NCBI GenBank assembly: GCA_035572035.1
Contig: DATNBH010000070.1
Coordinates: 37,813 to 101,812 of the forward strand
DNA length: 64,000 nt
Reading direction: 5' to 3'
Source: Pyrinomonadaceae bacterium
GTDB taxonomy: Bacteria > Acidobacteriota > Blastocatellia > Pyrinomonadales > Pyrinomonadaceae
Below the pieces are notes generated by a model, which saw only the letters and a program-made list of their open reading frames with translations, had not been told where the DNA came from and did not search any database. Positions 1 through 21,390 of this stretch are shown one piece after another (positions within the stretch are counted from its first letter, which is position 1; every line of letters starts with the position of its first letter). Made by a program: the position numbers and the translations under genes.

Positions 1-532
1 AATTAGTAATGTGAACTTGCCGGCCGGCCAAACCATCACCGGGGCGACGATCACGTTCCACAACATTCGCAACTGGGACTCAAACGCGAACATGTTGTTC
101 GTCCACTTGCTGGACTCAGCACGCGCTGCCTCAGTCGGTTCGTTTGTTGACGCTAGCGGCTCACCGGTACTAGGGGATCAAATTAGGGATAACTTCGCTG
201 GAAGCCTTTATGTCAATAACCCGCTCGTGAATGCCGGCACCGGGAATACGTTTCTGGGTCAACACAGCTTCGGCACCACTGGGAGCGATTGGACCATAAC
301 GTTCAATGCGGCGCAGCTGGCAGCGCTCACCGCGTATCTGCAGAATGGCAACAACGTGGCGTTTGGTTTTGACCCTGACTGCCACTTCTGGAACAACGGC
401 ATCACCTTCAATTTCACGACGCAACCCACGACCGGAGTACCTGAGCCGACTACGATGTTGCTGCTCGGATCCGGAATTGCCGGACTCTATTTGAAACGCC
501 GGCGCAAACAAACCCAACCCAGCGAAAACTAA
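1..532 (+). CDS. PEP-CTERM sorting-domain protein (5' partial; frame open to window start)
   Basis: C-terminus GVPEPTTMLLLGSGIAGLYLKRRRK is a PEP motif + TM helix + basic tail, typical of exosortase substrates. The ORF begins at GTG and upstream codons are open to position 2. Confidence 0.7.
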   Translation, partial: ISNVNLPAGQTITGATITFHNIRNWDSNANMLFVHLLDSARAASVGSFVDASGSPVLGDQIRDNFAGSLYVNNPLVNAGTGNTFLGQHSFGTTGSDWTITFNAAQLAALTAYLQNGNNVAFGFDPDCHFWNNGITFNFTTQPTTGVPEPTTMLLLGSGIAGLYLKRRRKQTQPSEN

Positions 533-713: not shown

Positions 714-2126
714 CTACGCTGTGCGATGTTCCAAATTGTAATCGCGCAACCTTCGATACAAAGTCGAAGGTGAAATGCCGAGCAGCTCAGCAGTCTTACC
801 ACGATGCCAGCCAGTCTGCTCCAGTGCCGCGAGAATTTGCTGACGCTCAACTTCACGCAATGACAACGGACCCGTTGCCGCGGCTGCGGTGTTGTCGACA
901 ACCGCCGAGCTCGGCGCAGCCGCGCTTGGTTGCGGTGGCGCCAGAAAAGGCGCACGCACAACTTCCGGCGGCAACTCACTCACGGTAATCATTCCATTGT
1001 TCGCAAGTATGACCGCGCGCTCGAGACAGTTGCGCAGCTGCCGAACATTGCCGGGCCAGTGATACGCGCGCATCGCGGCCAACGCTTCCGGCGCAATCTC
1101 AGGCGGATTGGTTCCACCGACAATCTTGAGAAGATGTCGCGCCAAAGGCTCGACGTCTTCAGAGCGCTCACGCAGCGCCTTCAGATCGATTTGAAATCCA
1201 TTGATTCGATAAAGCAGGTCGGCTCGGAAAGCTCCATCACTCACAACCGTGTCGAGATTTCGATTCGTCGCGGCAATGATGCGCACGTTGACTTCGACTT
1301 TGCGCACGCCACCGACGCGGAAGAAGGTCCGCGTCTCGATCGCTCGCAAGAGCTTTGCCTGTAACTGGGCCGGCAGTTCAGTAACTTCATCCAGAAACAA
1401 CGAGCCGCCATCGGCGAGCTCTACTAAACCTAGCTTGCGTGCCTTCGCGCCTGAAAACGCTCCGGCTTCGTAGCCAAACAATTCTGATTCGAGCAGCGAC
1501 TCCTGAAACGCCGCGCAGTTGAGATCGATAAACGATCCTTGCGCGCGAGACGACAGCCGGTGAATAGCCTGGGCGATCAACTCTTTTCCAGTGCCCGACT
1601 CGCCTGTAATCAGCACCGACGTATCCGAAGGAGCGACGCGCGATACTAATCGCACCGCTTCTTTCATCGCATCGGAAACGGAAACAATTTCCGGCAACGC
1701 CGACTGTCTTGCAAGCTGCTCGCGTAGGCGCTGATTATCAACCCGCAGTTGCCGCTTCTCAGCAGCCTGACGCACGCGCACATCAAGCTCGCCAATGCTG
1801 TACGGCTTGGTGAGATAGTCATAAGCGCCAAGCTTCATCGCTTCGACTGCAGTCTCAACCGTAGCCTGCCCAGTCAGCATAATCACTTCGGGCGGATTCG
1901 GGCGTTCGTGCACGCGACGCAGTAACTCCATTCCGTCCATGCGCGGCATGTTGATGTCGCACAGCAACACATCGACATTCGTCTCTTCGAGCCGGCGCAG
2001 CGCAGCCTCGCCATCGGGCGCGACCTGAACACGATAACCGTGGCGTTCCAACTCCTTCTGCAACACCATGCGCAGGTTGGCTTCGTCTTCGGCTACCAAT
2101 ATTCGTGCTGCTTGTGATTCTGCCAA
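714..2126 (-). CDS. Sigma-54-dependent Fis-family response regulator (NtrC-like)
   Basis: N-terminal REC domain, AAA+ sigma54 activator core (GESGTGKELIAQAIH, GAFSGA), C-terminal Fis HTH. Confidence 0.9.
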   Translation of the reverse strand: MAESQAARILVAEDEANLRMVLQKELERHGYRVQVAPDGEAALRRLEETNVDVLLCDINMPRMDGMELLRRVHERPNPPEVIMLTGQATVETAVEAMKLGAYDYLTKPYSIGELDVRVRQAAEKRQLRVDNQRLREQLARQSALPEIVSVSDAMKEAVRLVSRVAPSDTSVLITGESGTGKELIAQAIHRLSSRAQGSFIDLNCAAFQESLLESELFGYEAGAFSGAKARKLGLVELADGGSLFLDEVTELPAQLQAKLLRAIETRTFFRVGGVRKVEVNVRIIAATNRNLDTVVSDGAFRADLLYRINGFQIDLKALRERSEDVEPLARHLLKIVGGTNPPEIAPEALAAMRAYHWPGNVRQLRNCLERAVILANNGMITVSELPPEVVRAPFLAPPQPSAAAPSSAVVDNTAAAATGPLSLREVERQQILAALEQTGWHRGKTAELLGISPSTLYRRLRDYNLEHRTA

Positions 2127-2128
2127 AA

Positions 2129-4177
2129 CTATCCCTCTGAAGTTGATTGATTGATGGCCGGAAGTGTTATGGTAAACGTCGTGCCCGCACCCACCGTGGA
2201 CTGCACATCAAGTCCACCACCATGCTCAGTTAAGATACCATAACAGACCGCGAGGCCAAGACCCGTTCCGTGCCCAACTTCCTTCGTTGTAAAGAACGGC
2301 TCGAAAATCTTCTGGAGATTCTCCGGAGAAATGCCGACTCCAGTGTCAGTGACTTCGACGAGAACCAGATCGTCTCGATTGCGCGCTGCGATAGTCAGCG
2401 TTCCTCCGTCGGGCATCGCATCGATGGCGTTGGTTGAGAGAGCGATGACTGCTTGCTGCAACTGACCCGCGTCGCCCGAGACTGGCGCCAGCTCGTCCGC
2501 TATTTTCAACTGGATCTCGATTCCCTCGCCTCGTTTTTGATGAGCGACGAGACGCGCTGCTGAAGAGATCACCTCGGAGAGATCGACCGGGCGTCTTCTC
2601 GCTGCGCGTGTGCGGCTGAAGTTGAGCAGACCGGTCGTGATGCTCTTGCAGCGAAAAGCTTCACTGCGAATCAAACCGAGATACTCGCGCAGATCGTCGA
2701 GCGCTTCCGAGCCGGCGAAAGCGCCTTCCTTCACTCGTGATTCCAACGCCTCTGCGCAAGCCGAGATCGTCGCCAGCGGATTATTGATTTCGTGGACCAC
2801 ACCCGACGCTAATCGTCCCACCGCCGCCAGCTTTTCGGCGCGAGCTACGGCGCGATTGGCTTCGACGCGCGCAGTGATATCTTCGCCAACCGCAATCACG
2901 TGCGTGACGTCAGTACCGCCGTCGGCCCACATCGGAATCTTACTGACCAGCCAATGACGAGTCTCGCCTTCAGCAGTCAAGGTCTCCTGCTCGACTCGCT
3001 TGATGCCGCCGGTCTTGAAAACATGCGCGAATTCCTGGTCCAGCATCTCGCGCTTCTGACGCGTCAGTACTTCGTGGACATCTTTGCCCATCACGTCCTC
3101 GCGCGGCATGCCCAACTCGCCCAGTTCGCGATTGCGGTTCCAGGCGGCGATGCGATAGTCGCGATCGATGGCGTAAAGCGAGAGCGGCAAGCTGTCGAGT
3201 ATCGCGTCGGTAAAGCGTCGCTGCGCTTCTGCTTCAGCGGTACGCTGATCGACTTCCTTAGCCAGGCTTTCAGACGCGTTGCGCACTTCGAGATAGAGCG
3301 ACGAGATGTGCGCTGCAAGCGCGGCTTGTTGCACTGCGGCTTCGACAAGGCGGCACTCCGTCTCGCCACAGTCCTCGGCGTTGTCGAAGGCTATGACCAG
3401 GACGCCTTTCGTGCGGCCGCCAAAGCGCAGCGGCGCGGCAAACTCCACCACGTGAGTTTCATCGCGAAGCAGAAAATCTTTGGGGTTGGTCAACAGCACG
3501 GACGTCATGTTGCCCGCGGAGGTTAACCAACGCTGCATGCGATCGAGATGCAGGAGTGATTCGTCTTCCGCGCTGCCTTCGCGGTCGAAGACACAGCCTG
3601 CTTGGGTCTGTTCATTCAAACCGACAAAGGCTGCGCAAAGTGCGGCGCCCGTGCCATCGAAGGTTGCGCCTGCCACTCGCCGCACCAGTTGCTCGGGCTC
3701 GAGCGTACGCAGCAGGCCTCGGCCAAGATCGGCGAGAAAGCGCAGCTCGCGATTGCTGCCGAGCAGCGCCCATTCACGTTGCGCGGCTCGAAGATGCGAG
3801 CTCACGCGCGAAACGAGCTCGCCGGCTGAGGAAGGCTTGGTGATGTAATCATCCGCGCCGGCTGAGAAGGCTTCGACTTTGCGCTTCTCATCGTCACTGG
3901 CGGAAAAAGCGATAATGGGCAGTTTGCTGGTAGCGCTTTGGGCTCGCAGCAGGCGGCACAAAGCAAAGCCATCCACGCCGGGCATCTCGAGATCGAGCAT
4001 GAGGAGGTCGCACTGTTCTCGATGGAGCAGACGCAGTGCTGATGGAGCGTCTTCGGCGGTCAGGGCTCGATAGCCCGCGTCCTCGAAGACACGGCGCAGG
4101 TTCACGCGCACCATCGCGTCGTCATCGACAATCAGGAGCGTTGCGTTGTGGCTGATTTCGGGAGCAGAAGCGGACAT
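2129..4177 (-). CDS. Hybrid sensor histidine kinase (REC-GAF-PAS-HisKA-HATPase)
   Basis: N-terminal receiver (LLIVDDD...[14 protein letters not shown]), H-box [11 protein letters not shown]-terminal ATPase G-boxes. Start chosen at internal ATG (MSASAPEIS); the Arg/Cys-rich N-terminal extension of the ORF is discarded. The stop abuts the NtrC gene. Confidence 0.85.
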
Positions 4178-4820
4178 TAGGTTCCAAGACGAGGAGTGAG
4201 ACCCAAAGGCTCGGCCAGGGGTTGCCGCTGTGCGGGTCAACTGGCTGGTATTGATTGAAAAGCATGCGGCCAGATCTGTCAAGAAGATTGATCTCCGCTT
4301 CGTCTGGCGCAGGTTGAATTCCGATTGCCAAGGTCGATGAGTTCGGAGGGTTCGGCAGTCAGTTAGGTCGTCGCGGAGTAATGCCACCCAAAGCACTTTA
4401 AGGCCGGAAAGGCCCACAAGCTTACACATCACGCTTGGGCTTAAGATTCCAAAACGTTCTGTCGACGGGCCTCAATACAGGCCGCGCCTAAGGCAAAATC
4501 AACGAAACCGAGCTCAGCAACCTAGGAGGGAATACAGACAAATGACCGTAGGTGAGGGCTGTTCTTAACCATTTCTCGTTGGTTTCTGGTAAGGGGGATT
4601 GCATATCCGCGCAACTCCTTTAGATTTGCACTTCGACTTTGAAGAAATATGTTGATTTCCTGTTAACTGCGGGTTTAATCTCACGCCGCTTCGTTATTTC
4701 TTTACTCCGCCAGCACCGCTGGCTTCTCGCGCGCCCGGACAGATCAAGCCTGGGCCGCCGGAAGATCAACCTGCAGCCGGATCGAAGCAACTCAAAAACG
4801 GCAAAACGAATTAGTACTCT

Positions 4821-5036
4821 TTAGAACACTAACAGCAGTTCTTGCAGCAGGTTCAAGGCTGCCTCCGTCACCGCCGCACTGGGCCCTTGGGTGACGCCGG
4901 GAAGCCGAATGTCACCCGGTTCCGTTGCTGCTGGCGGAGGTGGAGGACCCGGAATATGGATTTCACCTGCTACTACCGGAAGAGCCAGGACCGCAAGGAG
5001 CATTAGCGCAGCGGTGAGTTCTTTAAGTTTTTGCAT
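4821..5036 (-). CDS. Small secreted proline-rich protein (71 aa)
   Basis: AGGAGAA RBS 5 nt upstream of ATG; N-terminal signal peptide LMLLAVLALPVVAG; PPPPP stretch. Confidence 0.4.
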   Translation of the reverse strand: MQKLKELTAALMLLAVLALPVVAGEIHIPGPPPPPAATEPGDIRLPGVTQGPSAAVTEAALNLLQELLLVF

Positions 5037-5191
5037 TCGTGTTCTCCTAAATGAGGGAATTAGAAATCCTCGGAAAGGAACCGAACAGATCCCGAGATGA
5101 GGCTATCCTAGCATCCGTTAGTGGCGTCACGAACAAGCTCAAAGCACAGATGCAAATTTTTTTGCAAACGTGCTAGAAAAGGAATACTCAC

Positions 5192-7075
5192 ATGACTTTA
5201 GGGAAGGTCTTAGTTCACCAATTAGAGAACCCAAATCTCTCATTCGACGACCGCGTTGAGTTGCGGTGCAAACTTGCTAGGACCTTGGAGGAGGAGGGTA
5301 AATACGATGCAGCTCGTGAGGCGATGCTAGAGGTCTGGCCTGAATTCGACGAGAGGCCTCAGGTTGAAGGATTGTCTGAACAAAGCAGGGCTGACACCTT
5401 AATACGAGTTGGTGCGCTGACTGGCTGGATTGGCAGTGCTAACCAACTCGATGGTGCCCAAGAAATCGCCAAAGATTTCATAAGTGAAGGAATACGATCA
5501 TTCGAACTGCTGAACGAGCCTATGAAAGTCGCTGAAGCACAAACAGAACTTGCTGTCTGCTATTGGCGCGCAGGAGCCTTTCAGGAAGCTAGAGTGATTT
5601 TGCATCAAGCCTTTGGTGTCCTTAAAGAATCGCACAGTGAGGCGAAACTGGTGACCTTGCTGCGAACGGCAATAAACGAGGAGTCGGCTGGTCGCTATCA
5701 TGATGCCTTGCGAATACAAAAAGAGGCGTCTCTATTATTTGAACAGACTCCGAATTTCACACTTAGAGGCAAATTTCATCACTTATTTGGCTTTATCCTC
5801 CGGAAACTTTCGGAAGTTGAGCTTCGCCGAGATTACATTGACCAAGCTCTGATCGAATACGCGGCTGCAAGTTACTACTTCGAGGAAGCCGGACTCATCC
5901 GTCATCGAGCTTGTGTGGAAAACAATCTCGGGTTTCTATTCGGAACGATCGGAAGGTTTGGCGACGCACATGAACACCTCGACCTCGCCCAAACACTTTT
6001 CACCAGTCTGAAGGACTCGGTGCACCTGGCGCAGGTGGATGAAACTCGGGCGCGAGTGTTGTTGGCGGAAGGGCGATTGGTTGAGGCGGAGAAGACTGTC
6101 AGGGCATCGGTACGCACGCTGGAAAAGGGCGATGAGCAGTCGCTGCTCGCAGAAGCGTTAACGACCCACGGAATCGCACAAGCACGATTGAAGCACCCTG
6201 ACCAGGCAAAGGTTAGTCTGCAACGAGCTCTTGATGTAGCAGAGCGAGCGGGAGATCTCGAAAGCGCCGGCAACGCTGCGCTCGTAATCGTCGAAGAGTT
6301 AATCGACTATGTTCCGAATGATGAACTCAAGCTCACTGTAGATCGAGCCTCTGAACTGCTCGCCAAAACGCAGGACCTGTCAGCGCTGAAACGGCTCGCA
6401 AACTGTTCAAATCGCGTCCTCGCTAAGGTGCATGCCTCACCTCGCTTTCCGGGAAAGGTCGATTGGACCAACTTTTCCTTCAGGGGAACATTACTGGAGT
6501 ACGAAGCTCACCTTATCAATCTTGCGCTTGAAGATGCAGGCGGAGTGGTTAGCAAAGCGGCGCGATTGTTGGGATTCAATCATCATCAGAGTTTGCTTTC
6601 GATGTTGAATGGACGACATGAAGTCCTTCGCCACCGCAGCACGCCAATTCTGCCACGGCGTCGCAGCATCATTCGCAGTGGCGAGAACGGCTCACCGCCT
6701 GGCAAACGCGGCCGCAAACGAACGCTCAGGATACTGCTTATCGAAGACGATGCTTCTGTCTCAAGTCTAATCCAGGAGAACATCGATGGCCTGGGCGCTG
6801 AGGTCGAGGAAATTGCAGATGGCGCGTCCGGGATGGAACTGCTAGCTTCAGGTGTCCATTTCGATCTGCTGGTTCTAAAAAATGAGATTCCCGGCGTGAG
6901 TGGAAAGAATCTTGCACGTCTCGCGCGCAGCTTATCTCAGTATCGAAAGACGCCCATAGTGGTGCTTTCGGCGAACGCTGACGATCAGATTCAATCTAAT
7001 GATTCAAATCTCTTTTGGCTGAGTAGCGAGGAACCTAACCGGATAACGGAGACTATTAACCAGATTTTTCATTGA
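5192..7075 (+). CDS. TPR-like helical repeat protein with Fis-type HTH and C-terminal receiver (REC) domain
   Basis: About 440 aa of alpha-helical TPR-like repeats, then an NtrC-C-terminus-like HTH (LEDAGGVVSKAARLLGFNHHQSLLSMLN), then REC (RILLIEDDASV...FDLLVLKNEIPGVSG...IVVLSANAD). Confidence 0.75.
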   Translation: MTLGKVLVHQLENPNLSFDDRVELRCKLARTLEEEGKYDAAREAMLEVWPEFDERPQVEGLSEQSRADTLIRVGALTGWIGSANQLDGAQEIAKDFISEGIRSFELLNEPMKVAEAQTELAVCYWRAGAFQEARVILHQAFGVLKESHSEAKLVTLLRTAINEESAGRYHDALRIQKEASLLFEQTPNFTLRGKFHHLFGFILRKLSEVELRRDYIDQALIEYAAASYYFEEAGLIRHRACVENNLGFLFGTIGRFGDAHEHLDLAQTLFTSLKDSVHLAQVDETRARVLLAEGRLVEAEKTVRASVRTLEKGDEQSLLAEALTTHGIAQARLKHPDQAKVSLQRALDVAERAGDLESAGNAALVIVEELIDYVPNDELKLTVDRASELLAKTQDLSALKRLANCSNRVLAKVHASPRFPGKVDWTNFSFRGTLLEYEAHLINLALEDAGGVVSKAARLLGFNHHQSLLSMLNGRHEVLRHRSTPILPRRRSIIRSGENGSPPGKRGRKRTLRILLIEDDASVSSLIQENIDGLGAEVEEIADGASGMELLASGVHFDLLVLKNEIPGVSGKNLARLARSLSQYRKTPIVVLSANADDQIQSNDSNLFWLSSEEPNRITETINQIFH

Positions 7076-7460
7076 TCGATAGGTCGTACATACAGTTCGA
7101 CGGCAAGGAAGTCGGTCTTTACCCCTCACACTGTGGTAGCTCACCGGGCGCACTGGCGGCGCCTCAGACACCACGAAACCACCAATAACTTGCGGCCAGC
7201 CGGGGCGAAAGTCTCTTTCGCTTAACGGTATCAGTGTCGGTGAAAGACACGCCGCTTTTGAGTAGTTCGGATGGAGCTCCAACTCGAGATGCACCGATAG
7301 CGAGCCGTGCATCTCTTGCGCTGGCACGTTCGTTTATGGTGGGAACGAATGCGCCGCGAAGCCGCCACGCAACTGAGCATTACGTGGCGCAGGGGACCGG
7401 CACAGGCCTCTCACCCGTGCCGGTCTTCCGAATCAGAATCTGGAAACGATGATTAGTTCT

Positions 7461-7510
7461 GATCTCAGATCTGAGATCTGAGATCGATGATCGATGATCG
7501 ATGATCGATA
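7461..7510. repeat. Tandem heptamer repeats (GATCTGA x3, GATCGAT x4)
   Basis: Seen directly in sequence. Confidence 0.6.
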
Positions 7511-7607
7511 CCTAAGATTTGAGCCACTGAAATTCTGAGCTTCAACAACTTTCTTGCAGTACACATTGAGCTACGAAGGAGGGAAACTCGTAACAAAGTC
7601 AGAATCG

Positions 7608-7730
7608 ATATTCCACTTAGCGTTGGACGCCCAACCCTGAATTGAACGAACACGGATTCCACTTACGTTGACGGCCAACCCTAAGTAACTGCAGCCGGAT
7701 TCCACTTAGCGTGGGATGGTCCACGCACGC
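7608..7730 (+). promoter_or_regulatory. Three direct repeats (ATTCCACTTAGCGTTG-N-CCAACCCT) with about 44-bp phasing upstream of the RHS gene
   Basis: Copies begin near 7610, 7654 and 7697, lying 85-205 bp upstream of the 7814 start. This looks like a transcription-factor binding array. Confidence 0.4.
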
Positions 7731-7813
7731 AATTGCTATTCATAACACTCGTATGACTCTTGCTCGCCCATTGCTGGCTCGCTGTTGGATGAACTTTGAG
7801 AGGAGTCTAACCC

Positions 7814-10800
7814 GTGACCAACAGCACCGCTTCGCTTCGCAAGGCTTTCATTTCGCGCGTTTCCTTTTTCCTGTTTGTTCTTTCAATTCTGAGTCTGACC
7901 GCAAGTACGGCTACGGCTCAGAGAAGCATAACTGACGGATCGACACCGCTGGCGCTGACGCCGGGAGCCCCAGCAGGTTCATACGAATTAAGCAAGCTTG
8001 AATCCATAAATGCTTACAACGGCAGTTTGAACTTTCGCTTGCCCTTGGTCGAAATCGGCGGTCGCGGGAGTGCGGGTTATGTCCTGAGCCTTCCAATTGA
8101 AACGCATTGGCGCACGGTCCATCGGAGTAATGACAATCAAATGATTGAACTACCGTCTTCGAACTCGTGGGCTTTTCACAGACGCGGCTACGGCGCGGGT
8201 CAGTTAGAAGGCCGTCTCGGAACTGATCCGGATCACCCTTGTCCGCCGCTATTTCACAATACCTTGGTCTTGAGTCGTCTCACGTTCACAGCACCTGACG
8301 GCACGGAGTACGAACTACGAGATCAATTAACAGGCGGTCAGCCGCAATCCTACTTCTGCGGTGGCAACGCGTACCCTTCACGTGGGACCGTCTTCGCGAC
8401 GGCGGATGGCACTGCCGCGACCTTCATTTCGGACACGGTTATCCGAGACGACGGCTCGGTCATAAACCCGACCGGTTACCTCTCGCTTCGTGATGGCACC
8501 CGATTCAGAATTGTCAACAGTGACGTGATCTGGATGCGAGATCGAAATGGAAACCAGGTGACCTTCTCCTACGGCGACAAGGAAATGACCGTAACAGACT
8601 CATTAAATCGAAAAGTGAACGTGAAATATGCCGACTTTTCGGTTGGTCGTTTCTACGACGAAATCACTCACAAGGGTTTCGCCGGCGCTCAGCGAACGAT
8701 TCGTGTGAACTATGCACCGCTTCAATCCGCCCTGCGGACCAATCGCCCCGGAGACATAGGTACAATCCAAACATCGGCTGCCCTCTTCCCGCAATTAACA
8801 GGCGCTCCTACGCCCTCGAACCCGAACGTGGTTTCCTCGGTGGTTTTGCCCGATGGCGTGCTCCAGTATCAGTTTCTATATAACGTTTACGGCGAATTAG
8901 CACGCGTATCACTACCGACCGGCGGAGCCTATGAGTATGATTTCGGCACTGGTTCTGCGTACGGTGACGCTACCGGCGTTATTTGGAGTGGAGTGGGATT
9001 GCCTGAAATTTATCGACGCGTGTTGCGGCGCCGTGTGTACATCGATCAGGGTCTCACTCTGGTCGGGTTGTCGACGTACAGTAGGCCTGAAGTGGAGACG
9101 CCCGGCTACGTTGAAATCAACCATCTCAAGGCCGATCAGACAACCATACTCGCACGAGAGCGTCATCACTTTTACGGGATTGCCTCATCGTCATTCGATC
9201 AAAGCTCACTTGACTATTCATCCTGGCGAGACGGCAAGGAATACAAGACGGAATATTTCGGAGCGAATGGTTCTACTCTCCTGAAACGGGTCACGAACAC
9301 GTGGGGACAACGTAGTGTGAGTTGGTGGACTTTCAGTGCCGATGCCGCACCTCCGAACAATCCGTTCGTGACTGAAACCATTACGACCCTCCCCGCTACC
9401 GGACAAGTAACGAAAACATCGCACCTCAACCCGCAAAGCGGTCAGCCGATGATCGATCAGTTCAACAACATCACTGACACCTGGGTCTATGATTACGGGA
9501 AAGAAGCTCCTGGCGATTTGCTCAACCACACTCACATCGACTATTTGACGATTAACAATGGCGTCGATTATTCCAACCGGACCTCTCCTTCGAGTCCCCA
9601 CTTGTTAAGCCTTGTGACTCGGCAATCTGTCTATGACAAACTCGAAATTGAAAAAGCGCGAACAACTTTCGAGTATGACAACTATGCCGTTGACAATTTT
9701 CATGCGGGACTAAAAGACTGGCCGGCGCTAACTGGCGTTCCGATCAGTGGTCTTGATTCTTCGTTTACCGCCTCACAAACTTCTCGAGGAAATGTCACGG
9801 CCACCAACCGGTACTTGTTTGTTAATGGCCAGCCTTCACAACCAATCACTTCCTACATCCAATACGATCTAGCCGGCAACGCGGTCAAAAGCATCGACCC
9901 TCGCAGCACCGCACAGAACATCATCGCAACCACTATCAGCTACGACGATTGTTTCGGCAATCCGGACGCCGAAGCTCGCACAAATAATGTTCCAATCGAG
10001 CTGGCGTCACCCGCGCGGCGCACCTATGCCTTTGCTACCAGCGCTACCAATGCGCTTGGTCACAAAACCTATTCGCAATTCGACTACTTCCTTGGCCGCG
10101 TTGTGAATGTCGAAGATGCCAACGGTACGGTCTTCAGTGCCGGGTATAACGATGCTTTGGATAGACCGAAGCAGGTTACCAAAGCCGTGAATCGCGAGCT
10201 TAAATTCCAGAGCCTGACTACGTTTTCGTACGACGACACTGCTCATACGGTTACTACTGCAGGTGATCTGCGCTCATACGGGGACCAGGCATTAAGTGAC
10301 CAGATTCTTTTTGATGGACTGGGAAGGACTGTTGAGACTCGTAAGTACGAAGGAAACGGTAACTTCATAGCGGAACGTCGAATGTACGATGCCTTGAATC
10401 GAGTCGAGCAGTCTTCGAATCCTTTCCGTCCCTGGAAAAACGAAGGCCCTCTTTGGAATACGACTCAATTTGACGGATTGGGACGAATAGAGTTATCCAG
10501 GACGGCCGACGGCGCTACTTCAAGAATCGAGTACTCCGGCAACGAATTGCTTGCCATCGACCAGGTCGGCCAGAAAAGAAAGACTATTACCGATGCTCTC
10601 GGAAGGATCACAAAAGTCTACGAAGATCCGGATGGAGTCAATTGGCTGACCGAGTACCTTTACGACACTCTTGGGAATCTAACCACTGTCATCCAGGGGA
10701 ACCGGACTCGAACCTTCCAGTACGACGCGCTGTCACGCTTAACCTCATCGACGCAACCAGAAACCGGCACTCGGTCCAACACCTATGACCAGAATGGCAA

Positions 10801-13800
10801 TATCCTTACGAGCGCTGACGCCCGCGGCATAATCACAACTGCCGTTTACGATGCGCTGAATCGGCCCATCTCGAAAACTTATCAAAACGATCTCGCCGCT
10901 ACGCCGCCAGTTAACTTCTTCTATGACGGACAAGCGCTACCTGGCGGAGCGCCTCCGAACTTTTCCAGGGGCGCCTCCGTCGGACATCTGGTCGCTGTGG
11001 TGAACGGCGGCAGTACGAGTGAAGGCGATTATTACGGTTATGACCTGCTGGGCCGTCCGGTTATGAAGGTGCAGCGCACGGGTAACAGCAACTATGAGAT
11101 TAACACCGACTACAACGCCTCAAGCCGCACTATTTCGCTAATGTACCCTTCCGGTCACACTGTCTCGTACAACTACGACTCGGCGGGCCGGCTCGCTGAT
11201 CGAGATGGACAGAACCTGGCGATGGTCGGCAATCTCGGAGACGGTTTAGTACGCACCTACTCGAGCGGCATTACCTACAGTAATCGGAACGGACTGGCTC
11301 AGGAAAAACTCGGCACCGACACTGCGATTTACAACAAGCTCTTCTACAACTCTCGCGGACAGCTAGCCGAAATTCGAGCCGGCACCAGTGGGAACAACAC
11401 CAGTTGGAATCGCGGCGCCATCATTAATCATTTCAGTAACTCCTGCTGGGGTATGTGTGGAGGCGCTAACTCCGCCACTAGCATGACCGACAATAATGGC
11501 AATCTAAAACGGCAAGATGTTTACATTCCACAGAACGAACAGGTTTCGAGTTATACAACTTGGGCGGACGGCTACACTTATGATAATCTCAACCGGCTCA
11601 CACAGGTCCATGAGTACACTGACAATCCCTCGCTTGATTGGCAGCAATCTTTCGTCTACGACCAGTGGAGTAACCGGCGCATCAATCAAGCGCTAACTTA
11701 CGGGCCTTCGATTCCCAAGCCGGACTTCACCGTAGACAGTAACAACAGGCTGGCCGCCCCCGCTGGTTTCAACCTAAGCTATGACCCTTCCGGCAATCTC
11801 ATCTCTGATAACTTCACCGGAGAAGGTCAACGTGTTTATGACGCCGAGAATCGCCTGATCAAAGCCTGGGCCAACGGCCAATGGCAGACCTACACGTACG
11901 ACGCGATGGGTCAACGCACCAAACGCAGCGTGTCGGGAACCGAAACCTGGCAGATCTATGGTTTCTCGGGAGAGCTATTGGCTGAATACGCCGCCAACAG
12001 CGCGCCGACAATGGTCAGGAAAGAGTATGGCTATCGGAATGGGCAGTTGCTTGTGACAGCAGAACCCGCTCAAGCGGCGCGCACTAACTATGCCTTGGCG
12101 AGCAATGGAGCAATCGCGACCGCCTCATCGATTTTGTCAAACGCGTTTCCCGCTAGCGGGATTAACAACGGCGATCGAAAAGGATTGAACTGGGGCAATG
12201 GCGGAGGTTGGCGAGATGCCGAGCCAGGTAACACTTTTCCGGATTGGGTCGAGATAACTTTTCCGAGCGCGAAGACGATTGATGAAGTTGACGTCTTCAC
12301 TGTCCAGGACAACTACGCGAACCCCGCAGAACCGACTGAGGCAATGACCTTCGGCGTTTATGGGCTGACGGGTTACGAGGTGCAGTACTGGAACGGGAGC
12401 AGTTGGGCAACAGTCTCCGGTGGCAGCGTTACCGGTAGCAATAAGATCTGGCGCAAGATCACTTTTACGGCGCTCACTACAGCGAAGGTCAGAGTGCGAA
12501 CGAATGCGTCCATCGATGGCTACAGTCGTTTGGTGGAAGTTGAAGCCTGGGGCACTACGTCTGGAGCAGCACCGCGCACGAATGTAGCGCTCGCCGGTAA
12601 TGGTGGCGTGGCGAGCGCTTCCTCGCAATTGTCTGCATCATTTCCGGCGAGCGGAACGATTAACGGCGATCGGAAAGGGCTGAGCTGGGAAAACGGTGGC
12701 GGCTGGCGTGATGCTGAACCGCGAAACAGTTTTCCGGATTGGCTGCAGGTGGAGTTCAACGGCAGCAAGACCATCGATGAAGTCGATGTATTTACGATTC
12801 AGGACAATTACGCCAACCCGTCGGAACCAACCGAGAACATGACGTTCACTACCTATGGCACCACTGGGTATGAAGTGCAGTACTGGAATGGAAGTTCGTT
12901 CGCGGCAGTGCCGGGGGGCGCAGTCACAGGTAACAACAGAGTCTGGCGCAAGATTACTTTCCCTGCGGTGACAACCACGAAGATTCGAGTGCTAACAAAT
13001 GCAACCGCAGATGGCTATAGCCGGCTGGTTGAAGTGGAAGCGTGGACGGCGAGCTCAAGCTCCAGTGAGGCAAACATAAATTGGTTACTCGCGGACCAAC
13101 TCGGAACGCCACGAATGGTCTTCGATAAGTCGGGAAGTCTTGCATCTGTAAAGCGCCATGACTATCTGCCTTTCGGCGAGGAGATCGGCGCAGGCGTTGG
13201 CATCCGGAGCAATTCGCTTGGATACAGCCTAAGCGACGGCGTCCGCCAAAAGTTCACCTCAAAAGAGCGAGACAGCGAAACGGGTCTCGACTATTTTCTG
13301 GCGCGTTACTATCACAGTTCTCAGGGAAGATTCATAAGTCCCGACCCGCTCCTCGCGAGTGGCCGCCCCGGCAACCCTCAAACCTGGAATCGCTATGCGT
13401 ATGCTTTGAATAATCCGCTGCGGTTCACCGATCCCGACGGTCTGGCTGCTAATGAAAGCACCGGCTTCGTTGATTTTCAACAAGGAAATACCCCACAACA
13501 GCCACTACCGACGCCGCCAACTACCCAGCAAAGCGGGACAGGTGAAAATGGACAGGTGTTCGCACCCAAGATAGACCTGACGACATTTTCCTTCGGAACG
13601 GTGGAAGTTAATGGAGCGTCGCCCATTTTCGCAGGCCCTCCTGTACCCTTGGATAGTCAGCCAAATTTGATAATGAACCAAGGAACGACGGCTATGGCGA
13701 ATAATGATTTGAATGGCATGATCGCCATTACCGAACTGCTATTGCACCCAGGTACAGGCGGCGCGGTATCTCTTTCACTCTCTTTGGGTACGGGTGTCGC

Positions 13801-14107
13801 CCCGAACATCAACTGGACTCTAAACAAGACTTTTTACGTACGCTCGCCGGAGGAGGTGTTGCTCCAAACCGGAATCGCGAACCGCACCATCCAGGGAGGA
13901 GTAGCAGAGAAGTTGTCTAAAACTGAAAGCTTAGTTGCTGCTGGCGGAAACTGCCCCAGGCGACTAGGTGACGTCGCAACCATTGGGGGTGCAAATCTGG
14001 CATCAATCTTTGGCCAACAGGCTCGTGACACTGCCCAGGAGGTCGCGCTAGCCAGGTATCAACAGGACTACAGTGCTAACCCATCCTCGGAGTATGTGCC
14101 GCATTAG
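7814..14107 (+). CDS. RHS/YD-repeat polymorphic toxin protein with two tandem F5/8-type-C (discoidin) domains, RHS core (DPDGL) and variable C-terminal toxin domain
   Basis: Sec signal peptide. About 25 YD repeats ([28 protein letters not shown]...). Two roughly 160-aa discoidin-like domains of about 75% identity at 12085-12555 and 12575-13045. RHS core [17 protein letters not shown]...[11 protein letters not shown] ends near 13446. An unrelated roughly 215-aa C-terminal domain follows. GTG start with AGGAG RBS. Confidence 0.9.
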
Positions 14108-14166
14108 AAAAACGGAAGATCGTAGCGATGTTCACCAAATCTGATTCAGTCCAAGGAAGGAGTGCT

Positions 14167-14832
14167 ATGACCCTACGCAAACCTGTTCTCTTTGCTCTTA
14201 TCTCTTTGAATCTCTGTTTTCAATCGATCGACTTCCGCTGCCTCGCGCAAAACGGAAATATAGTTGTACCTGCGCCGGTATCGATTTATCCGCCAGCGCC
14301 GGCGTTGGAGGCGAAGGCGGTCGGCGATGTGAAGTCGTTTAAGCGAACGCGGTCTGATCTCAAGGCTTCAGTGTTGTCTCACCCGATTCCCGAGGCAACC
14401 CTCGTTTTCGTCTTGCGCGACAAACGGGATGCCAAGGTGATTGTGAAATTGCCAGAAGAAGCAAAGAAGCCACTGACGGAATGCTGGCATGCTGAACTCA
14501 CTTTCTTCTACCTGAGTACGTTCGAAGTTCATGACCTCGAAACCAGAATCAGGGAGCGAGAGACCTTCGGATCCGTGGTGGCAAATGTCCAGGCCAAACT
14601 ACAGAAGTTGACCATAGATACTCCAACCGGCAGGAGAAAGATCTCTCTGAATGAAGCTGTTAGTCTGACGCATCTCCTAAATGAATCGGCTCAATGCGTC
14701 GTTGACGAAGCGAAAGAGAGCCTCAGAGGCAAACCTGTTGCTGGAGTGAAGGGTAGACAGCGATGCCATTTTTTGGCTTCATTCGACGCGATGGACGAAA
14801 CCATGCAGAGTTTGAACCTGACAGGCACATAA
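14167..14832 (+). CDS. Secreted protein immediately downstream of RHS toxin (candidate immunity protein)
   Basis: GGAAGGAG RBS; signal peptide MTLRKPVLFALISLNLCFQS..CLAQ; 60 bp after the RHS stop; no recognisable domain. Confidence 0.45.
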   Translation: MTLRKPVLFALISLNLCFQSIDFRCLAQNGNIVVPAPVSIYPPAPALEAKAVGDVKSFKRTRSDLKASVLSHPIPEATLVFVLRDKRDAKVIVKLPEEAKKPLTECWHAELTFFYLSTFEVHDLETRIRERETFGSVVANVQAKLQKLTIDTPTGRRKISLNEAVSLTHLLNESAQCVVDEAKESLRGKPVAGVKGRQRCHFLASFDAMDETMQSLNLTGT

Positions 14833-20525: not shown

Positions 20526-20951
20526 CTACTTTTGCAAAAGGCCCGTGACAAACTCGTCGTAGCGGCTGCGATCCTTATCGCTCATCGCTGCAATCGAAAC
20601 GCCAATTAGATATCCGTGCTCCGCCCCTTCTTCATCGAGCCGTTCGTAGCGGACTGGAGTCACCTGAACTTCAATCGTTCCGTCAGGCAACTCGACGTCC
20701 AGGATCAACGTGCGATTTTCGCCGGCCAGGTAATGATCGCCGATCCGAATGACGGGGACCACTACAGCAAGCCCGGTTGTACTAATGTCGAGAGTGTGGC
20801 CGCTGGTGGATTGTCCGCGATTTACCGTGTGGCTGTGAGACTCCTCAAGCAACGTAACCACGACCGGCAAATTTGCCTGACAGCGTTCCGCGCGTCTGCG
20901 GTCGCCAATGAAATGGCGAAGTCTTGATGCGATGTTGCGTGCGAGTTCAGA
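20526..20951 (-). CDS. PilZ-domain protein (c-di-GMP receptor)
   Basis: RRRAERCQANLPVVV...GHTLDISTTGLAVVV matches the RxxxR...D/NxSxxG PilZ motifs. Start placed at MSELARN because the longer ORF would run into the MITE-like repeat TIR. Confidence 0.7.
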   Translation of the reverse strand, partial: SELARNIASRLRHFIGDRRRAERCQANLPVVVTLLEESHSHTVNRGQSTSGHTLDISTTGLAVVVPVIRIGDHYLAGENRTLILDVELPDGTIEVQVTPVRYERLDEEGAEHGYLIGVSIAAMSDKDRSRYDEFVTGLLQK

Positions 20952-21080
20952 CATTTGCACCGCGCTGGATCGGGAACCCGGGCTGAACGCTTCGTTATTG
21001 AGGAGGGCAAAGTCGGGGAATGAACTGTCAACCCATTCTAGAGAAGTAATGTCGGACTGCGCAATGATTAAGTTTCGACG

Positions 21081-21390
21081 CAGTGCGCCAAGAAAAGGTA
21101 GGTAAGGCAAAAATGGTGAACTGAAGCCGTAGCCGATACCACAGGCTGGCCCTGTGGTGTTTCATGTTCACCGCTACAAAAACAGGCTGATCCATCGGTT
21201 CGCAAGAGGCTGCGGGCTCGCCCCGTGGTGTTTCACGGTTGCCGCTGCCGCCAACCTGAAGCCTGAACACTCCACGGGACGAGCCCGTGGCATCACCGAA
21301 AATCTCGGCCCGCCTCTGTTAGCGACCAACGTGAGTGACCACGGCGCCAGGCCGTGGCCTCAGTTTTAGCGACTACCTACTTTTTCTTGC
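21081..21390. mobile_element. MITE-like element, family D: 310 bp with terminal inverted repeats CAAGAAAAGGTAGGTAG and internal CCACGG..CCGTGG hairpins
   Basis: Left end GCGCCAAGAAAAGGTAGGTAAGG and right end AGCGACTACCTACTTTTTCTTG are inverted. Partial copies at 39224-39352 (inverted, about 85 bp near-identical) and 48994-49062. Confidence 0.6.

What the first reader, a model, noticed from the sequence alone, without database searches (positions are those of the whole stretch)
5192..7075. Unusual regulator architecture: TPR-like array, then Fis-type HTH, then C-terminal receiver domain
The Fis-type HTH normally terminates NtrC-family proteins. Here it follows a roughly 440-aa TPR-like repeat region and is itself followed by a REC domain with the expected acidic pocket (LLIEDD) and phosphoacceptor position (FDLLVL). 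A C-terminal REC after the DNA-binding domain is atypical. The gene lies between a two-component system and the RHS toxin locus.
Basis: partly seen in the sequence, partly recalled or inferred. Interest (0 to 1): 0.55.

Follow-up and report, generated by a model that had tools for sequence, protein, structure and literature searches.

The report
TPR regulator with dead receiver domain
This gene encodes a real TPR–DNA-binding–receiver regulator from a large uncharacterised soil Acidobacteria family, but its receiver has lost the phosphorylation site, and the family is almost always paired with a gene for a small secreted repeat peptide, which hints at peptide signalling.

Summary
The ORF 5192-7075 is intact (627 aa). 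HMMs and a confident structure model confirm the order TPR superhelix (aa 1-414), Fis/NtrC-type HTH (425-492) and C-terminal receiver (511-627).

The claimed phosphoacceptor is wrong. The acceptor position aligns to Lys563, not to the Asp of "FDLLVL", and the beta5 Lys is Ser611. This copy and its nearest subclade therefore carry a pseudo-receiver.

The architecture is not rare. At least 568 loci occur in Pyrinomonadaceae/Blastocatellia genomes, and 70 of 83 have a canonical receiver.

The domain order has an evolutionary explanation. The HTH is homologous to that of sister TPR-AAA+-HTH_8 sigma54 activators. One of these has a stand-alone receiver gene immediately downstream that matches the fused receiver (E~1e-32).

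The unexpected result is a partner gene. About 80 of 87 loci have a divergent gene for a ~80-aa secreted peptide (window 4821-5036, minus strand) with paralogue-specific internal repeats. A paralogue-specific palindromic operator lies between the two genes.

The peptide gene also accompanies TPR-GGDEF-EAL relatives, which lack a DNA-binding domain (2 of 2). That suggests a receptor-ligand pair analogous to RRNPP systems. This is inferred, not shown.

The parts
5192..7075 (+). Regulator gene, 627 aa plus stop: TPR sensor, Fis-type HTH and pseudo-receiver
   Evidence: There were 4276 homologues with E<=1e-3, and the best 120 are full-length at 49-71% identity.
5192..6433 (+). TPR-like superhelical sensor module (aa 1-414, 20 helices)
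   Evidence: TPR_12 scores 51.8 bits and pLDDT is mostly above 90. Foldseek's best matches are peptide-groove TPRs: LGN/Pins (E 7e-8), APPBP2 and Rap (E~5e-5). The same module is fused in relatives to AAA+-HTH_8, GGDEF-EAL, HisKA-HATPase-REC, TIR and HTH_8+GNAT.
6464..6667 (+). Fis/NtrC-type HTH DNA-binding domain plus conserved basic tail (aa 425-492); the most conserved segment of the family
   Evidence: HTH_8 scores 23.9 bits against a cut-off of 22. Invariant residues are W425, F428, E438, A445, L446, A456, L460, H465, L468 and L479. It is 43% identical over 60 aa to the C-terminal HTH of the TPR-AAA+-HTH_8 protein P0160. The recognition-helix class co-varies with the upstream palindrome class.
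6668..6721 (+). Disordered Arg/Lys-rich linker (aa 493-510); likely the former junction between the regulator gene and the REC gene
   Evidence: pLDDT is below 50 at aa 492-508 and the columns are variable and gappy. A separate REC gene lies downstream in L093.
6722..7072 (+). C-terminal pseudo-receiver domain (aa 511-627): E518, D519, D520 and S593 are kept; the acceptor Asp is replaced by K563 (6878-6880, AAA) and the beta5 Lys-Pro by S611-S612 (7022-7027); alpha4 is almost absent
4821..5036 (-). Divergent partner gene for a 71-aa secreted peptide precursor: signal peptide ...VVA|GEIHIPG, a Pro run, a second GDIRLPG motif, and the conserved C-terminal tail EAALNLLQELLLVF
   Evidence: Homologous ORFs sit in the same position in about 80 of 87 family loci. 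No Pfam or NCBIfam match was found. The family has 680 database members, all annotated 'hypothetical'.
5151..5166 (.). Perfect palindrome TGCAAA-N4-TTTGCA, 26-41 nt upstream of the regulator ATG; candidate operator of the regulator
   Evidence: A palindrome occurs at the same position in related loci: score >=6 in 21 of 42 loci, against 4 of 42 in a coding control and 0 of 42 in shuffles. The half-site class tracks the recognition-helix class.
5104..5114 (.). Conserved box TATCCTAGCAT (family consensus CATCTTA[A/G]CAC), 45-47 nt from the palindrome. On the minus strand it reads as an extended -10-like TGnTA.GAT for the peptide gene (inferred).
   Evidence: conserved across most of the 42 anchored upstream regions.
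5176..5191 (+). Conserved leader and ribosome-binding site GAAAAGG-N6-CTCAC immediately before the ATG
   Evidence: nearly invariant in 42 loci.
2129..4432 (-). Neighbouring REC-GAF-PAS-HisKA-HATPase histidine kinase (context; syntenic only in the query's subclade)
   Evidence: synteny in L001-L004, L007 and L008.
714..2126 (-). Neighbouring NtrC-type sigma54 enhancer-binding response regulator, the likely true partner of the kinase (context)
7814..14107 (+). Downstream 2097-aa secreted RHS/YD-repeat protein with a variable C-terminus (context; linked only in the query's subclade and a few others)

Best explanation
The gene encodes a cytoplasmic transcription regulator of a large, uncharacterised family found in Blastocatellia/Pyrinomonadaceae (Acidobacteriota).

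Anatomy (shown):
- An N-terminal ~410-aa TPR superhelix is a portable input module. In relatives it is also fused to sigma54-AAA+-HTH_8, GGDEF-EAL, a histidine kinase, TIR and GNAT outputs.
- A Fis/NtrC-type HTH follows. It is homologous to the DNA-binding domain of the TPR-AAA+-HTH_8 enhancer-binding proteins, so this protein looks like an AAA+-less relative of those activators.
- A C-terminal receiver is orthologous to a single-domain receiver gene that lies just downstream of one such activator. This explains the odd position of the REC as a gene fusion.
- In this protein and its nearest subclade the receiver has lost the phosphoacceptor Asp (K563) and the beta5 Lys (S611). It is a pseudo-receiver and cannot take phosphate from the neighbouring kinase.

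Mechanism (inferred):
- A dimer binds the paralogue-specific palindrome TGCAAA-N4-TTTGCA in the 155-bp divergent intergenic region.
- From there it controls both its own gene and the divergently transcribed gene for a small secreted repeat peptide.
- The TPR groove senses a peptide or protein ligand, most plausibly derived from that partner peptide.
- In canonical family members, phosphorylation of the REC adds a second input. Here the REC is retained only as a structural, dimerisation or docking module.
For: Domain anatomy:
- Domains.
- K563 at the acceptor position: (alignments to 5t3y, 28tm and CheY). The family consensus is E-D-[N/D]...D563 (96 of ~115)...S593...K611-P612.
- Pseudo-receiver subclade: the query plus P0002-P0006 and P0010 all lack the Asp and the Lys-Pro.
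- Census of 83 regulators: 70 canonical, and K occurs only in this window.

Modular TPR input:
- 443 clusters at 50% identity with E<1e-30, with lengths of ~500, ~630 and 750-900 aa.
- Alternative outputs identified.

Origin of the HTH and the REC:
- HTH homology to an enhancer-binding protein's HTH.
- Stand-alone REC downstream of the TPR-AAA+-HTH_8 gene in L093.
- That REC matches the fused RECs at 42-49% identity (E 1e-31 to 1e-33). Against the window's own kinase and activator RECs it reaches only 28-31% (E 1e-8 to 1e-9).

Partner peptide gene:
- Present in about 80 of 87 loci, down to 42% regulator identity.
- Two further pairs found, including one at 30% identity.
- Present next to 2 of 2 TPR-GGDEF-EAL proteins that have no DNA-binding domain and next to 1 of 2 TPR-AAA+ proteins.
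- Exact internal repeats of >=5 aa occur in 21 of 74 precursors, against 0.28 expected, with 25 different motifs.

Operator:
- A palindrome at a fixed position is enriched: 21 of 42 loci, against 4 of 42 and 0 of 42 in controls.
- The half-site class co-varies with the recognition helix.

Fold:
- The TPR fold resembles peptide-binding superhelices including Rap.
Against: - No direct evidence shows that the protein binds the palindrome or any peptide.
- The co-variation between operator and recognition helix is confounded by shared ancestry of neighbouring sequences.
- The peptide is predicted to be exported while the receptor is cytoplasmic, so a re-import or retention step has to be assumed.
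- The association with non-HTH variants rests on only 3 loci. TPR-TIR (L089), TPR-kinase (L091) and one TPR-AAA+ gene (L064) have no peptide gene of their own.
- HTH_8 support in this individual sequence is marginal (23.9 bits against a cut-off of 22). A PDB sequence search of the HTH was not significant.
- Foldseek similarity to Rap is generic TPR similarity and ranks behind the eukaryotic LGN protein.
- No recognisable sigma70 or sigma54 consensus promoter was found, so the promoter assignments are guesses.
Confidence: 0.6

Rival explanations
1. One reading: an atypical but functional response regulator whose C-terminal REC is phosphorylated, for example by the adjacent kinase, to control DNA binding.
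For: The REC HMM scores above the cut-off and the acidic pocket E518-D519-D520 is present. A kinase gene lies adjacent and is syntenic in the subclade. Most family members (70 of 83) have a fully canonical receiver, so this reading is probably right for them.
Against: In this protein the acceptor position is Lys563 and the beta5 Lys is Ser611, and alpha4 is nearly absent. All 7 members of the subclade lack the Asp. The kinase already has a cognate NtrC-type partner encoded next to it. Most family loci have no adjacent kinase.
Confidence: 0.05
2. Regulator and target only: the small secreted protein is simply the gene the regulator controls, for example a surface or matrix peptide. The TPR module senses something unrelated, such as a protein partner or a metabolite.
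For: The divergent arrangement with a shared intergenic operator is the classic regulator-target layout. There is no evidence for peptide re-import. The strongly conserved C-terminal tail would give no paralogue specificity.
Against: The peptide gene also sits next to 2 of 2 TPR-GGDEF-EAL proteins, which cannot regulate transcription directly. Repeats that are identical within one precursor but differ between paralogues are typical of signal precursors rather than structural proteins.
Confidence: 0.25
3. Secretion-feedback sensor: the TPR module binds the not-yet-exported precursor in the cytoplasm, through its hydrophobic tail or signal peptide, and releases the regulator once export proceeds. 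This would resemble the TPR chaperone and activator pairs of type III secretion (SicA-InvF, IpgC-MxiE; recalled from my own knowledge, not tested here).
For: Both partners would meet in the cytoplasm without any importer. The conserved C-terminal tail would match a conserved TPR groove. The pairing with non-HTH outputs is equally well explained.
Against: It does not explain the paralogue-specific tandem repeats. No dedicated secretion system is linked to the module. There is no precedent for this with Sec substrates.
Confidence: 0.12
4. The C-terminal REC of this copy is only a decaying remnant with no function, on its way to being lost as in the ~500-aa family members.
For: The REC is the fastest-evolving part: 59% identity to P0002, against 71% for the TPR and 91% for the HTH. 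Catalytic residues and alpha4 are lost. REC-less members exist.
Against: The reading frame, the fold (pLDDT ~78-88) and surface motifs such as ARLARSL..TPI[IV]VL and T.TINQLF[HQ] are kept across a subclade that has diverged to 49-59% identity. That argues for purifying selection.
Confidence: 0.15
5. Assembly or annotation artefact: two ORFs (a TPR-HTH gene and a REC gene) joined by a frameshift or a misassembly.
For: A two-gene version does exist in a related architecture (L093).
Against: More than 100 independent homologues from different samples and genomes carry the same continuous ~630-aa ORF. P0001 is 100% identical over its 596 aa (its cluster holds 3 member sequences on one contig).
Confidence: 0.01

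Closest known systems
NtrC-family bacterial enhancer-binding proteins with a non-REC N-terminal sensor (here the sister TPR-AAA+-HTH_8 proteins P0145, P0150 and P0160)
   Same: The same ~410-aa TPR input module (40-53% identity). The C-terminal Fis-type HTH is homologous (43% identity), including the 'HQxL' recognition-helix motif and the basic tail. One of them (P0145, L093) has the divergent peptide gene and a cognate REC encoded next door.
   Different: There is no sigma54-interaction AAA+ domain, so it cannot be a sigma54 activator. The REC is fused at the C-terminus rather than encoded separately.
RRNPP(A) peptide quorum-sensing pairs of Firmicutes and their phages (Rap/NprR/PlcR/PrgX/AimR plus propeptide; PMC10075063, PMC9765709, PMC11343458)
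   Same: A cytoplasmic TPR receptor encoded next to a small gene for a signal-peptide-bearing propeptide. The DNA-binding output often autoregulates the pair. Some RRNPPA propeptides carry tandemly duplicated pheromone units (PMC11343458). The Rap-Spo0F-Phr trio also combines a TPR protein, a receiver domain and a peptide (from my own knowledge).
   Different: No detectable sequence homology, only generic TPR fold similarity. The HTH is Fis-type and lies C-terminal to the TPR rather than being an N-terminal XRE-type HTH. The host is a Gram-negative phylum. The precursors are longer (~80 aa) and have a conserved hydrophobic C-terminal tail. Peptide binding and import are unproven.
Pseudo-receiver domains (for example ShkA Rec1, PMC7010744; FrzS, PMC9811614; plant pseudo-response regulators)
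   Same: The (beta-alpha)5 receiver fold is retained, the phosphoacceptor Asp is replaced, and the domain is kept under apparent constraint for a role other than phosphotransfer.
   Different: Here the degeneration is recent and clade-specific inside a family whose other members are canonical. The domain sits C-terminal to a DNA-binding domain.
TPR-containing transcription regulators such as MalT, AfsR and NsdA
   Same: A TPR superhelix acts as the regulatory or sensor part of a transcription factor. Weak profile matches were seen to the TPR_MalT, AfsR and NsdA TPR regions.
   Different: All those scores are far below the family cut-offs. The DNA-binding domains differ (LuxR or SARP type against Fis type). 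There is no STAND ATPase and the domain order is different.

Membership tests
Phospho-accepting response regulator (receiver domain, PF00072) | (beta-alpha)5 receiver fold with an HMM score above the gathering threshold | tested here: met
   Response_reg scores 36.6 bits against a cut-off of 30.2, but only profile positions 1-83 of 111 match. The model shows b1-a1-b2-a2-b3-a3-b4-(a4 vestigial)-b5-a5.
Phospho-accepting response regulator (receiver domain, PF00072) | Acidic Mg2+-binding pair at the end of beta1 | tested here: met
   E518-D519-D520.
Phospho-accepting response regulator (receiver domain, PF00072) | Phosphoacceptor Asp at the C-terminal end of beta3 | tested here: not met
   K563 (codon AAA, 6878-6880) aligns with the acceptor Asp of 5t3y, 28tm and CheY and with D in 96 of ~115 family members. 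D558 of 'FDLLVL' lies at the other end of the strand.
Phospho-accepting response regulator (receiver domain, PF00072) | Conserved Thr/Ser at the end of beta4 and Lys at the end of beta5 | tested here: not met
   S593 is present, but the family's K611-P612 is S611-S612 here.
Phospho-accepting response regulator (receiver domain, PF00072) | Phosphotransfer from a cognate histidine kinase | not testable with these tools
   A kinase gene is adjacent, but it is paired with its own NtrC-type regulator. A biochemical assay is needed.
NtrC-family sigma54 enhancer-binding protein | Central sigma54-interaction AAA+ domain (PF00158, GAFTGA loop) | tested here: not met
   There is no Sigma54_activat or AAA hit in the 627-aa protein at E<=1, whereas the neighbouring gene scores 224 bits.
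NtrC-family sigma54 enhancer-binding protein | C-terminal Fis-type HTH (PF02954) | tested here: met
   HTH_8 scores 23.9 bits against a cut-off of 22. PF02954 is also precomputed on many homologues. The segment is 43% identical to the HTH of the TPR-AAA+-HTH_8 protein P0160. It is followed by a REC and so is not terminal.
RRNPP(A) peptide receptor-propeptide systems | Cytoplasmic receptor with a TPR peptide-binding domain | tested here: met
   TPR HMMs match. The model is a helical superhelix with no signal peptide or transmembrane segment. The fold resembles peptide-groove TPRs.
RRNPP(A) peptide receptor-propeptide systems | Adjacent small ORF encoding a secreted propeptide | tested here: met
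   4821-5036 (-), 71 aa, with a signal-peptide-like N-terminus. It is conserved in about 80 of 87 loci.
RRNPP(A) peptide receptor-propeptide systems | Homology to the Rap/NprR/PlcR/PrgX/AimR receptors, with an N-terminal HTH where one is present | tested here: not met
   Only generic TPR similarity was found: Rap at E~5e-5 and 10-12% identity, ranked 36th or lower behind LGN. The HTH is Fis-type and C-terminal to the TPR.
RRNPP(A) peptide receptor-propeptide systems | The mature peptide is re-imported and binds the TPR groove to switch the output | not testable with these tools
   An OPT transporter gene lies at 23833-26202, but it is not specifically linked to the module. Binding and import need experiments.
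Pseudo-receiver domain proteins | Receiver fold retained while the phosphoacceptor Asp is missing, consistently across a clade | tested here: met
   The fold is retained. The acceptor is K, R, G or N in all 7 members of the subclade, which has diverged to 49-59% identity in the REC.
Blastocatellia TPR-HTH_8-REC regulator family (uncharacterised, delineated here) | Full-length homology across the TPR, HTH and REC, plus the divergent peptide gene and the upstream palindrome | tested here: met

The most novel reading that the evidence does not exclude
The regulator and its divergent gene form one unit of a previously undescribed, highly paralogous peptide-signalling system in Gram-negative soil Acidobacteria (Blastocatellia). 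A secreted precursor carries several copies of a paralogue-specific short motif. It is processed, and the product is sensed by the cognate cytoplasmic TPR module. That module is wired to interchangeable outputs: Fis-type HTH with or without a receiver, a sigma54 activator, or c-di-GMP turnover. This would be a functional analogue of the RRNPP quorum-sensing systems of Firmicutes that arose independently.
Probability: 0.3. Interest if true: 0.85.

Novelty: new variant of a known kind. Interest (0 to 1): 0.62.

Why it matters
For the finding as posed:
- The 'odd' architecture has a concrete explanation. It is an AAA+-less relative of TPR-type enhancer-binding proteins, fused to its neighbouring single-domain receiver.
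- The proposed phosphotransfer experiment would be expected to fail, because this copy's receiver lacks the acceptor residue.

More broadly:
- The family and its partner peptides are abundant in a poorly understood but globally important soil phylum: hundreds of species and 680 peptide clusters, all annotated 'hypothetical'.
- Each genome carries several regulator-peptide pairs, each with its own operator half-site and its own peptide repeat motif. That looks like a set of insulated signalling channels.
- If the peptides are the ligands, this would extend cytoplasmic-receptor peptide communication beyond Firmicutes. It would also give a direct handle on cell-cell signalling in Acidobacteria through synthetic peptides and reporter fusions.
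- The canonical and pseudo-receiver sister clades offer a natural experiment on how a two-component input is added to a one-component regulator and then lost.

Tried and rejected
- **Sigma54 promoter search.** TGGCAC-N5-TTGCW with up to 2 mismatches gave 20 matches against 33.7 expected. The local hit at 7322 lacks the -12 GC. I found no evidence that the neighbouring activator drives the peptide, regulator or RHS genes.
- **Sigma70 consensus scan of 4400-7900.** 0 sites against 2.4 expected. The promoter assignments therefore remain guesses.
- **Three direct repeats GGATTCCACTTAGCGT upstream of the RHS gene**. These are not found in L001-L006, so they are not a conserved feature of the module.
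- **PDB sequence search with the HTH segment alone.** Not significant. The top FGFR hits are spurious and the FleQ HTH scored only E~0.4.
- **NCBIfam and Pfam scans of the small peptides.** No family matched.
- **Look-up of the exact protein P0001.** Not on record.
- **Metagenome scan seeded with the TPR module of the GGDEF-EAL variants,** intended to raise the number of loci. It only re-found the same gene.
- **Literature searches** on RRNPP plus Acidobacteria, TPR plus enhancer-binding protein plus Acidobacteria, and pseudo-receiver plus TPR plus C-terminal receiver. No description of this family turned up.
- **PEP-CTERM PrsK/PrsR/PrsT regulatory system.** Considered and rejected. The neighbouring activator scores 355 bits against the 502.6 cut-off of TIGR02915, and the TPR regulator does not match PrsT.
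- **MalT, AfsR or NsdA membership.** Considered and rejected, because all scores are far below the cut-offs.
Full report
**1. Checking the observation**

The ORF at 5192-7075 (+) is intact: 627 codons, ATG start, TGA stop.
- TPR_12 scores 51.8 bits (cut-off 30.1).
- Response_reg scores 36.6 bits (cut-off 30.2). It covers aa 514-599 but only profile positions 1-83 of 111.
- HTH_8 scores 23.9 bits (cut-off 22) over aa 436-461.

An AlphaFold2 model built on 112 homologues is confident (pLDDT 87, pTM 0.67). It shows:
- 20 helices at aa 3-414;
- a four-helix HTH bundle at 430-481;
- a disordered Arg/Lys-rich linker at 492-508;
- a (beta-alpha)5 receiver at 513-626 in which helix alpha4 is almost missing.

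The neighbours are as described. Upstream on the minus strand lie a REC-GAF-PAS-HisKA-HATPase kinase and an NtrC-type sigma54 activator. Downstream lies a 2097-aa RHS-repeat protein.

**2. The phosphoacceptor assignment is wrong**

In residue-level alignments to solved receivers (5t3y, 28tm, CheY 4hnr), the acceptor Asp (...LTD...VTD...ISD) aligns with Lys563 of 'LLVLKNEIPG'. The Asp in 'FDLLVL' (D558) is at the opposite end of strand beta3.

In 120 close homologues the consensus active site is canonical: E518, D519, N/D520, D563 (96 of ~115), S593 and K611-P612. The window protein has K563 and S611-S612. The K563 codon is AAA, two changes away from GAY.

The query and its nearest relatives (P0002-P0006, P0010) all lack the acceptor, carrying K, R, G or N instead, and all lack the Lys-Pro. 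The hydrophobic core and several surface motifs are nevertheless conserved at 49-59% identity.

Among 83 distinct regulators taken from genomes:
- 70 are fully canonical;
- 5 keep the Asp but change another site;
- 5 have a non-Asp acceptor (N three times, E once, and K only in this window);
- 3 have no REC.

This copy therefore carries a pseudo-receiver, and phosphotransfer from the adjacent kinase is not expected.

**3. How unusual is the architecture?**

It is unusual relative to textbook regulators but not rare. The protein search gave 4276 hits. The best 120 are all ~630 aa at 49-71% identity, annotated at most as 'response regulator' or 'CheY-like/TPR'.

A scan of one genome per species found at least 568 loci. 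All of the best 80 come from Pyrinomonadaceae, Pyrinomonadales, Blastocatellia or Acidobacteriota MAGs, often with several paralogues per genome.

Searching with only the TPR+HTH part against 1.84 billion cluster representatives gave 443 clusters at E<1e-30 in several length classes. Pfam scans of representatives show that the ~410-aa TPR module is a portable N-terminal input domain. It is fused to:
- Sigma54_activat + AAA_lid + HTH_8;
- GGDEF + EAL;
- HisKA + HATPase + REC;
- TIR;
- HTH_8 + GNAT;
- HTH_8 alone.

**4. Why a Fis-type HTH, and why a C-terminal REC?**

The query's HTH and basic tail (aa 436-493) are 43% identical to the C-terminal DNA-binding domain of the TPR-AAA+-HTH_8 protein P0160. 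The match includes the unusual 'HQxL' motif. The family therefore looks like an AAA+-less relative of TPR-type enhancer-binding proteins.

In the locus of another such activator (P0145, L093), a stand-alone 166-aa receiver gene lies immediately downstream. That receiver matches the fused receivers of the TPR-HTH-REC family at 42-49% identity (E 1e-31 to 1e-33). Against the window's own kinase and activator receivers it reaches only 28-31% (E ~1e-8 to 1e-9).

The simplest reading is a gene fusion of the regulator with its downstream single-domain receiver. The disordered linker would mark the old junction. REC-less ~500-aa members have no REC remnant downstream.

**5. The conserved partner gene**

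In every context first examined, a 65-80-aa ORF lies divergently ~90-220 bp upstream of the regulator. In the window it is 4821-5036 (-):

MQKLKELTAALMLLAVLALPVVAGEIHIPGPPPPPAATEPGDIRLPGVTQGPSAAVTEAALNLLQELLLVF

Across 87 loci, about 80 have it, down to 42% regulator identity. In contrast, the kinase, the activator and the RHS gene are linked only in the query's subclade, with the RHS gene also present in a few other loci.

The peptide family has these features (76 distinct sequences, median 80 aa):
- a signal peptide ending ...AFA|G;
- a motif such as GEI.T[GP];
- a Pro run;
- a second copy of the motif;
- a conserved tail, DSVTEIALNLLQSVLSLF.

Exact internal repeats of >=5 aa occur in 21 of 74 precursors (0.28 expected from shuffles). 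Repeats of >=6 aa occur in 14 (0.02 expected). There are 25 different motifs, for example GIMHTG x3, GIIHTEK x2 and GEMLTPPC x2.

A profile search found 680 members. All are annotated 'hypothetical' and none has a Pfam domain. NCBIfam also has nothing.

**6. The peptide gene follows the sensor, not the HTH**

- Both TPR-GGDEF-EAL relatives I could inspect lack any DNA-binding domain, yet both have a divergent peptide gene of the same type. One carries five tandem GDLGTD units and the other five GDIGGGK units.
- One of two TPR-AAA+ genes has it as well.
- The TPR-TIR and TPR-kinase examples do not.
- Two extra pairs turned up inside the held loci, one at only 30% regulator identity.

The number of non-HTH loci is small. 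An attempt to enlarge it failed.

**7. A paralogue-specific operator**

I anchored 42 upstream regions on the true start codon. They show three features:
- a nearly invariant leader, GAAAGG-N6-CTCAC-ATG;
- an invariant box, CATCTTA[A/G]CAC (window 5104-5114);
- a palindrome 45-47 nt from the box in the window and L010, the two loci where the spacing was counted (window 5151-5166, TGCAAA-N4-TTTGCA).

Palindromes of score >=6 occur in 21 of 42 loci, against 4 of 42 in a coding control and 0 of 42 in shuffles. The half-site class tracks the class of the HTH recognition helix:
- TTGCAA-type sites go with 'NHHQSLL';
- GCCGA[CT]-N7-9-ATCGGC sites go with 'TRQSLDSMLH';
- TGTCA-type sites go with 'HH.TL[VI]NKLN'.

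This is the pattern expected for cognate operator-regulator pairs, although shared ancestry contributes to it. No consensus sigma70 or sigma54 promoter was found.

**8. Most likely mechanism**

Shown:
- the domain anatomy;
- the loss of the phosphoacceptor;
- homology of the HTH to that of the enhancer-binding proteins;
- orthology of the fused REC and the stand-alone REC;
- the near-universal pairing with the peptide gene;
- the palindrome at a fixed position.

Inferred:
- A dimer binds the palindrome and controls both the peptide gene and its own gene.
- The TPR groove binds a peptide or protein ligand, most plausibly derived from the partner precursor. The fold is closest to peptide-groove TPRs such as LGN, APPBP2 and Rap.
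- In canonical members, REC phosphorylation adds a second input. In this copy the REC is retained for a role that does not involve phosphorylation.

They are weighed in the rival section of the report.

**9. Comparison with known systems**

- It is not an NtrC-family activator, because it has no AAA+ domain.
- It is not a competent response regulator, because it has no acceptor Asp.
- It works most like a one-component TPR-sensor regulator.
- With its propeptide neighbour it resembles the RRNPP(A) systems of Firmicutes, defined as adjacent propeptide and cytoplasmic receptor genes (PMC10075063). Some of those carry tandemly duplicated pheromone units (PMC11343458).
- It is not a member of that family. 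There is no homology beyond the generic TPR fold, the HTH is of a different type and position, and the phylum is different.
- The pseudo-receiver has precedents such as ShkA (PMC7010744) and FrzS (PMC9811614).
- Literature searches found no description of this family.

**10. Verdict**

Taken alone, the architecture is a moderately interesting variant with a clear evolutionary explanation. The conserved pairing with multi-copy secreted-peptide precursors and paralogue-specific operators is the more valuable lead, but its mechanism is inferred rather than shown.

Noticed in passing
window 7608-7623, 7654-7669, 7697-7712: Three direct copies of GGATTCCACTTAGCGT (0-3 mismatches; 0.54 expected) lie 100-200 bp upstream of the RHS gene start. 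They may be a regulator binding array. They are not conserved in L001-L006.
   Followed up: partly
window ~7460-7510: A short tandem-repeat tract (gatctga gatctga gatcgat gatcgat gatcgat...) lies in the intergenic region between the regulator and the RHS gene.
   Followed up: no
window 7814-14107 (+): The 2097-aa RHS/YD-repeat protein has an N-terminal signal peptide and an internal NedA-like galactose-binding domain. Identity to its orthologues drops from ~60% to 15-30% in the last ~250 aa, which is typical of polymorphic-toxin C-termini. The next ORF (14128-14832, 234 aa) has no Pfam match and could be an immunity protein.
   Followed up: partly
window 23833-26202 (-): An OPT-family oligopeptide transporter (323 bits) lies ~17 kb from the regulator and is also syntenic in L006. 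It is a candidate peptide importer, but it is not specifically linked to the module.
   Followed up: no
window 14905-17061 (-), 20526-21110 (-): c-di-GMP genes lie downstream of the RHS gene: an HD-GYP + GAF + GGDEF protein and a PilZ protein. Also present are an MFS transporter, a SLOG/LDcluster4 protein and a CBM9 protein. The same block follows a second, REC-less TPR-HTH paralogue in L006.
   Followed up: partly
window 11-532 (+); L002 2833-3528; L003 1-646: A PEP-CTERM-motif protein lies beside the sigma54 activator in the window. A PEP-CTERM/exosortase-domain protein gene also lies a few genes away from the activator in L002 and L003. The kinase-activator pair may belong to an exosortase-type regulon rather than to the TPR regulator.
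   Followed up: no
L006 1-9494; L024 10001-13927: Regulator-peptide modules can be duplicated in tandem. L006 has a second, REC-less TPR-HTH with its own peptide after the RHS gene. L024 has a 503-aa TPR-HTH with its own peptide (GEVPTSGV.SPQPG x2) directly after a 646-aa TPR-HTH-REC.
   Followed up: partly
L056, L037, L038 and L075 upstream regions (~50-90 nt before the regulator ATG): In several paralogues the conserved CATCTTAACAC box forms the left arm of a long hairpin or palindrome (for example GGCGCATCTTAAC-N10-GTTAAGATGCGCC in L056). This is not evident in the window, and its function is unknown.
   Followed up: no
window 2129-4432 (-): The neighbouring kinase has its receiver at the N-terminus (REC-GAF-PAS-HisKA-HATPase), not at the C-terminus as in classical hybrid kinases.
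   Followed up: no
family alignment column 563 (P0026, P0029, P0034, P0072, P0073, P0088, P0108; L034): Several otherwise canonical family members have Glu instead of Asp at the acceptor position. This might be a phosphomimetic-like, constitutively 'on' state.
   Followed up: no
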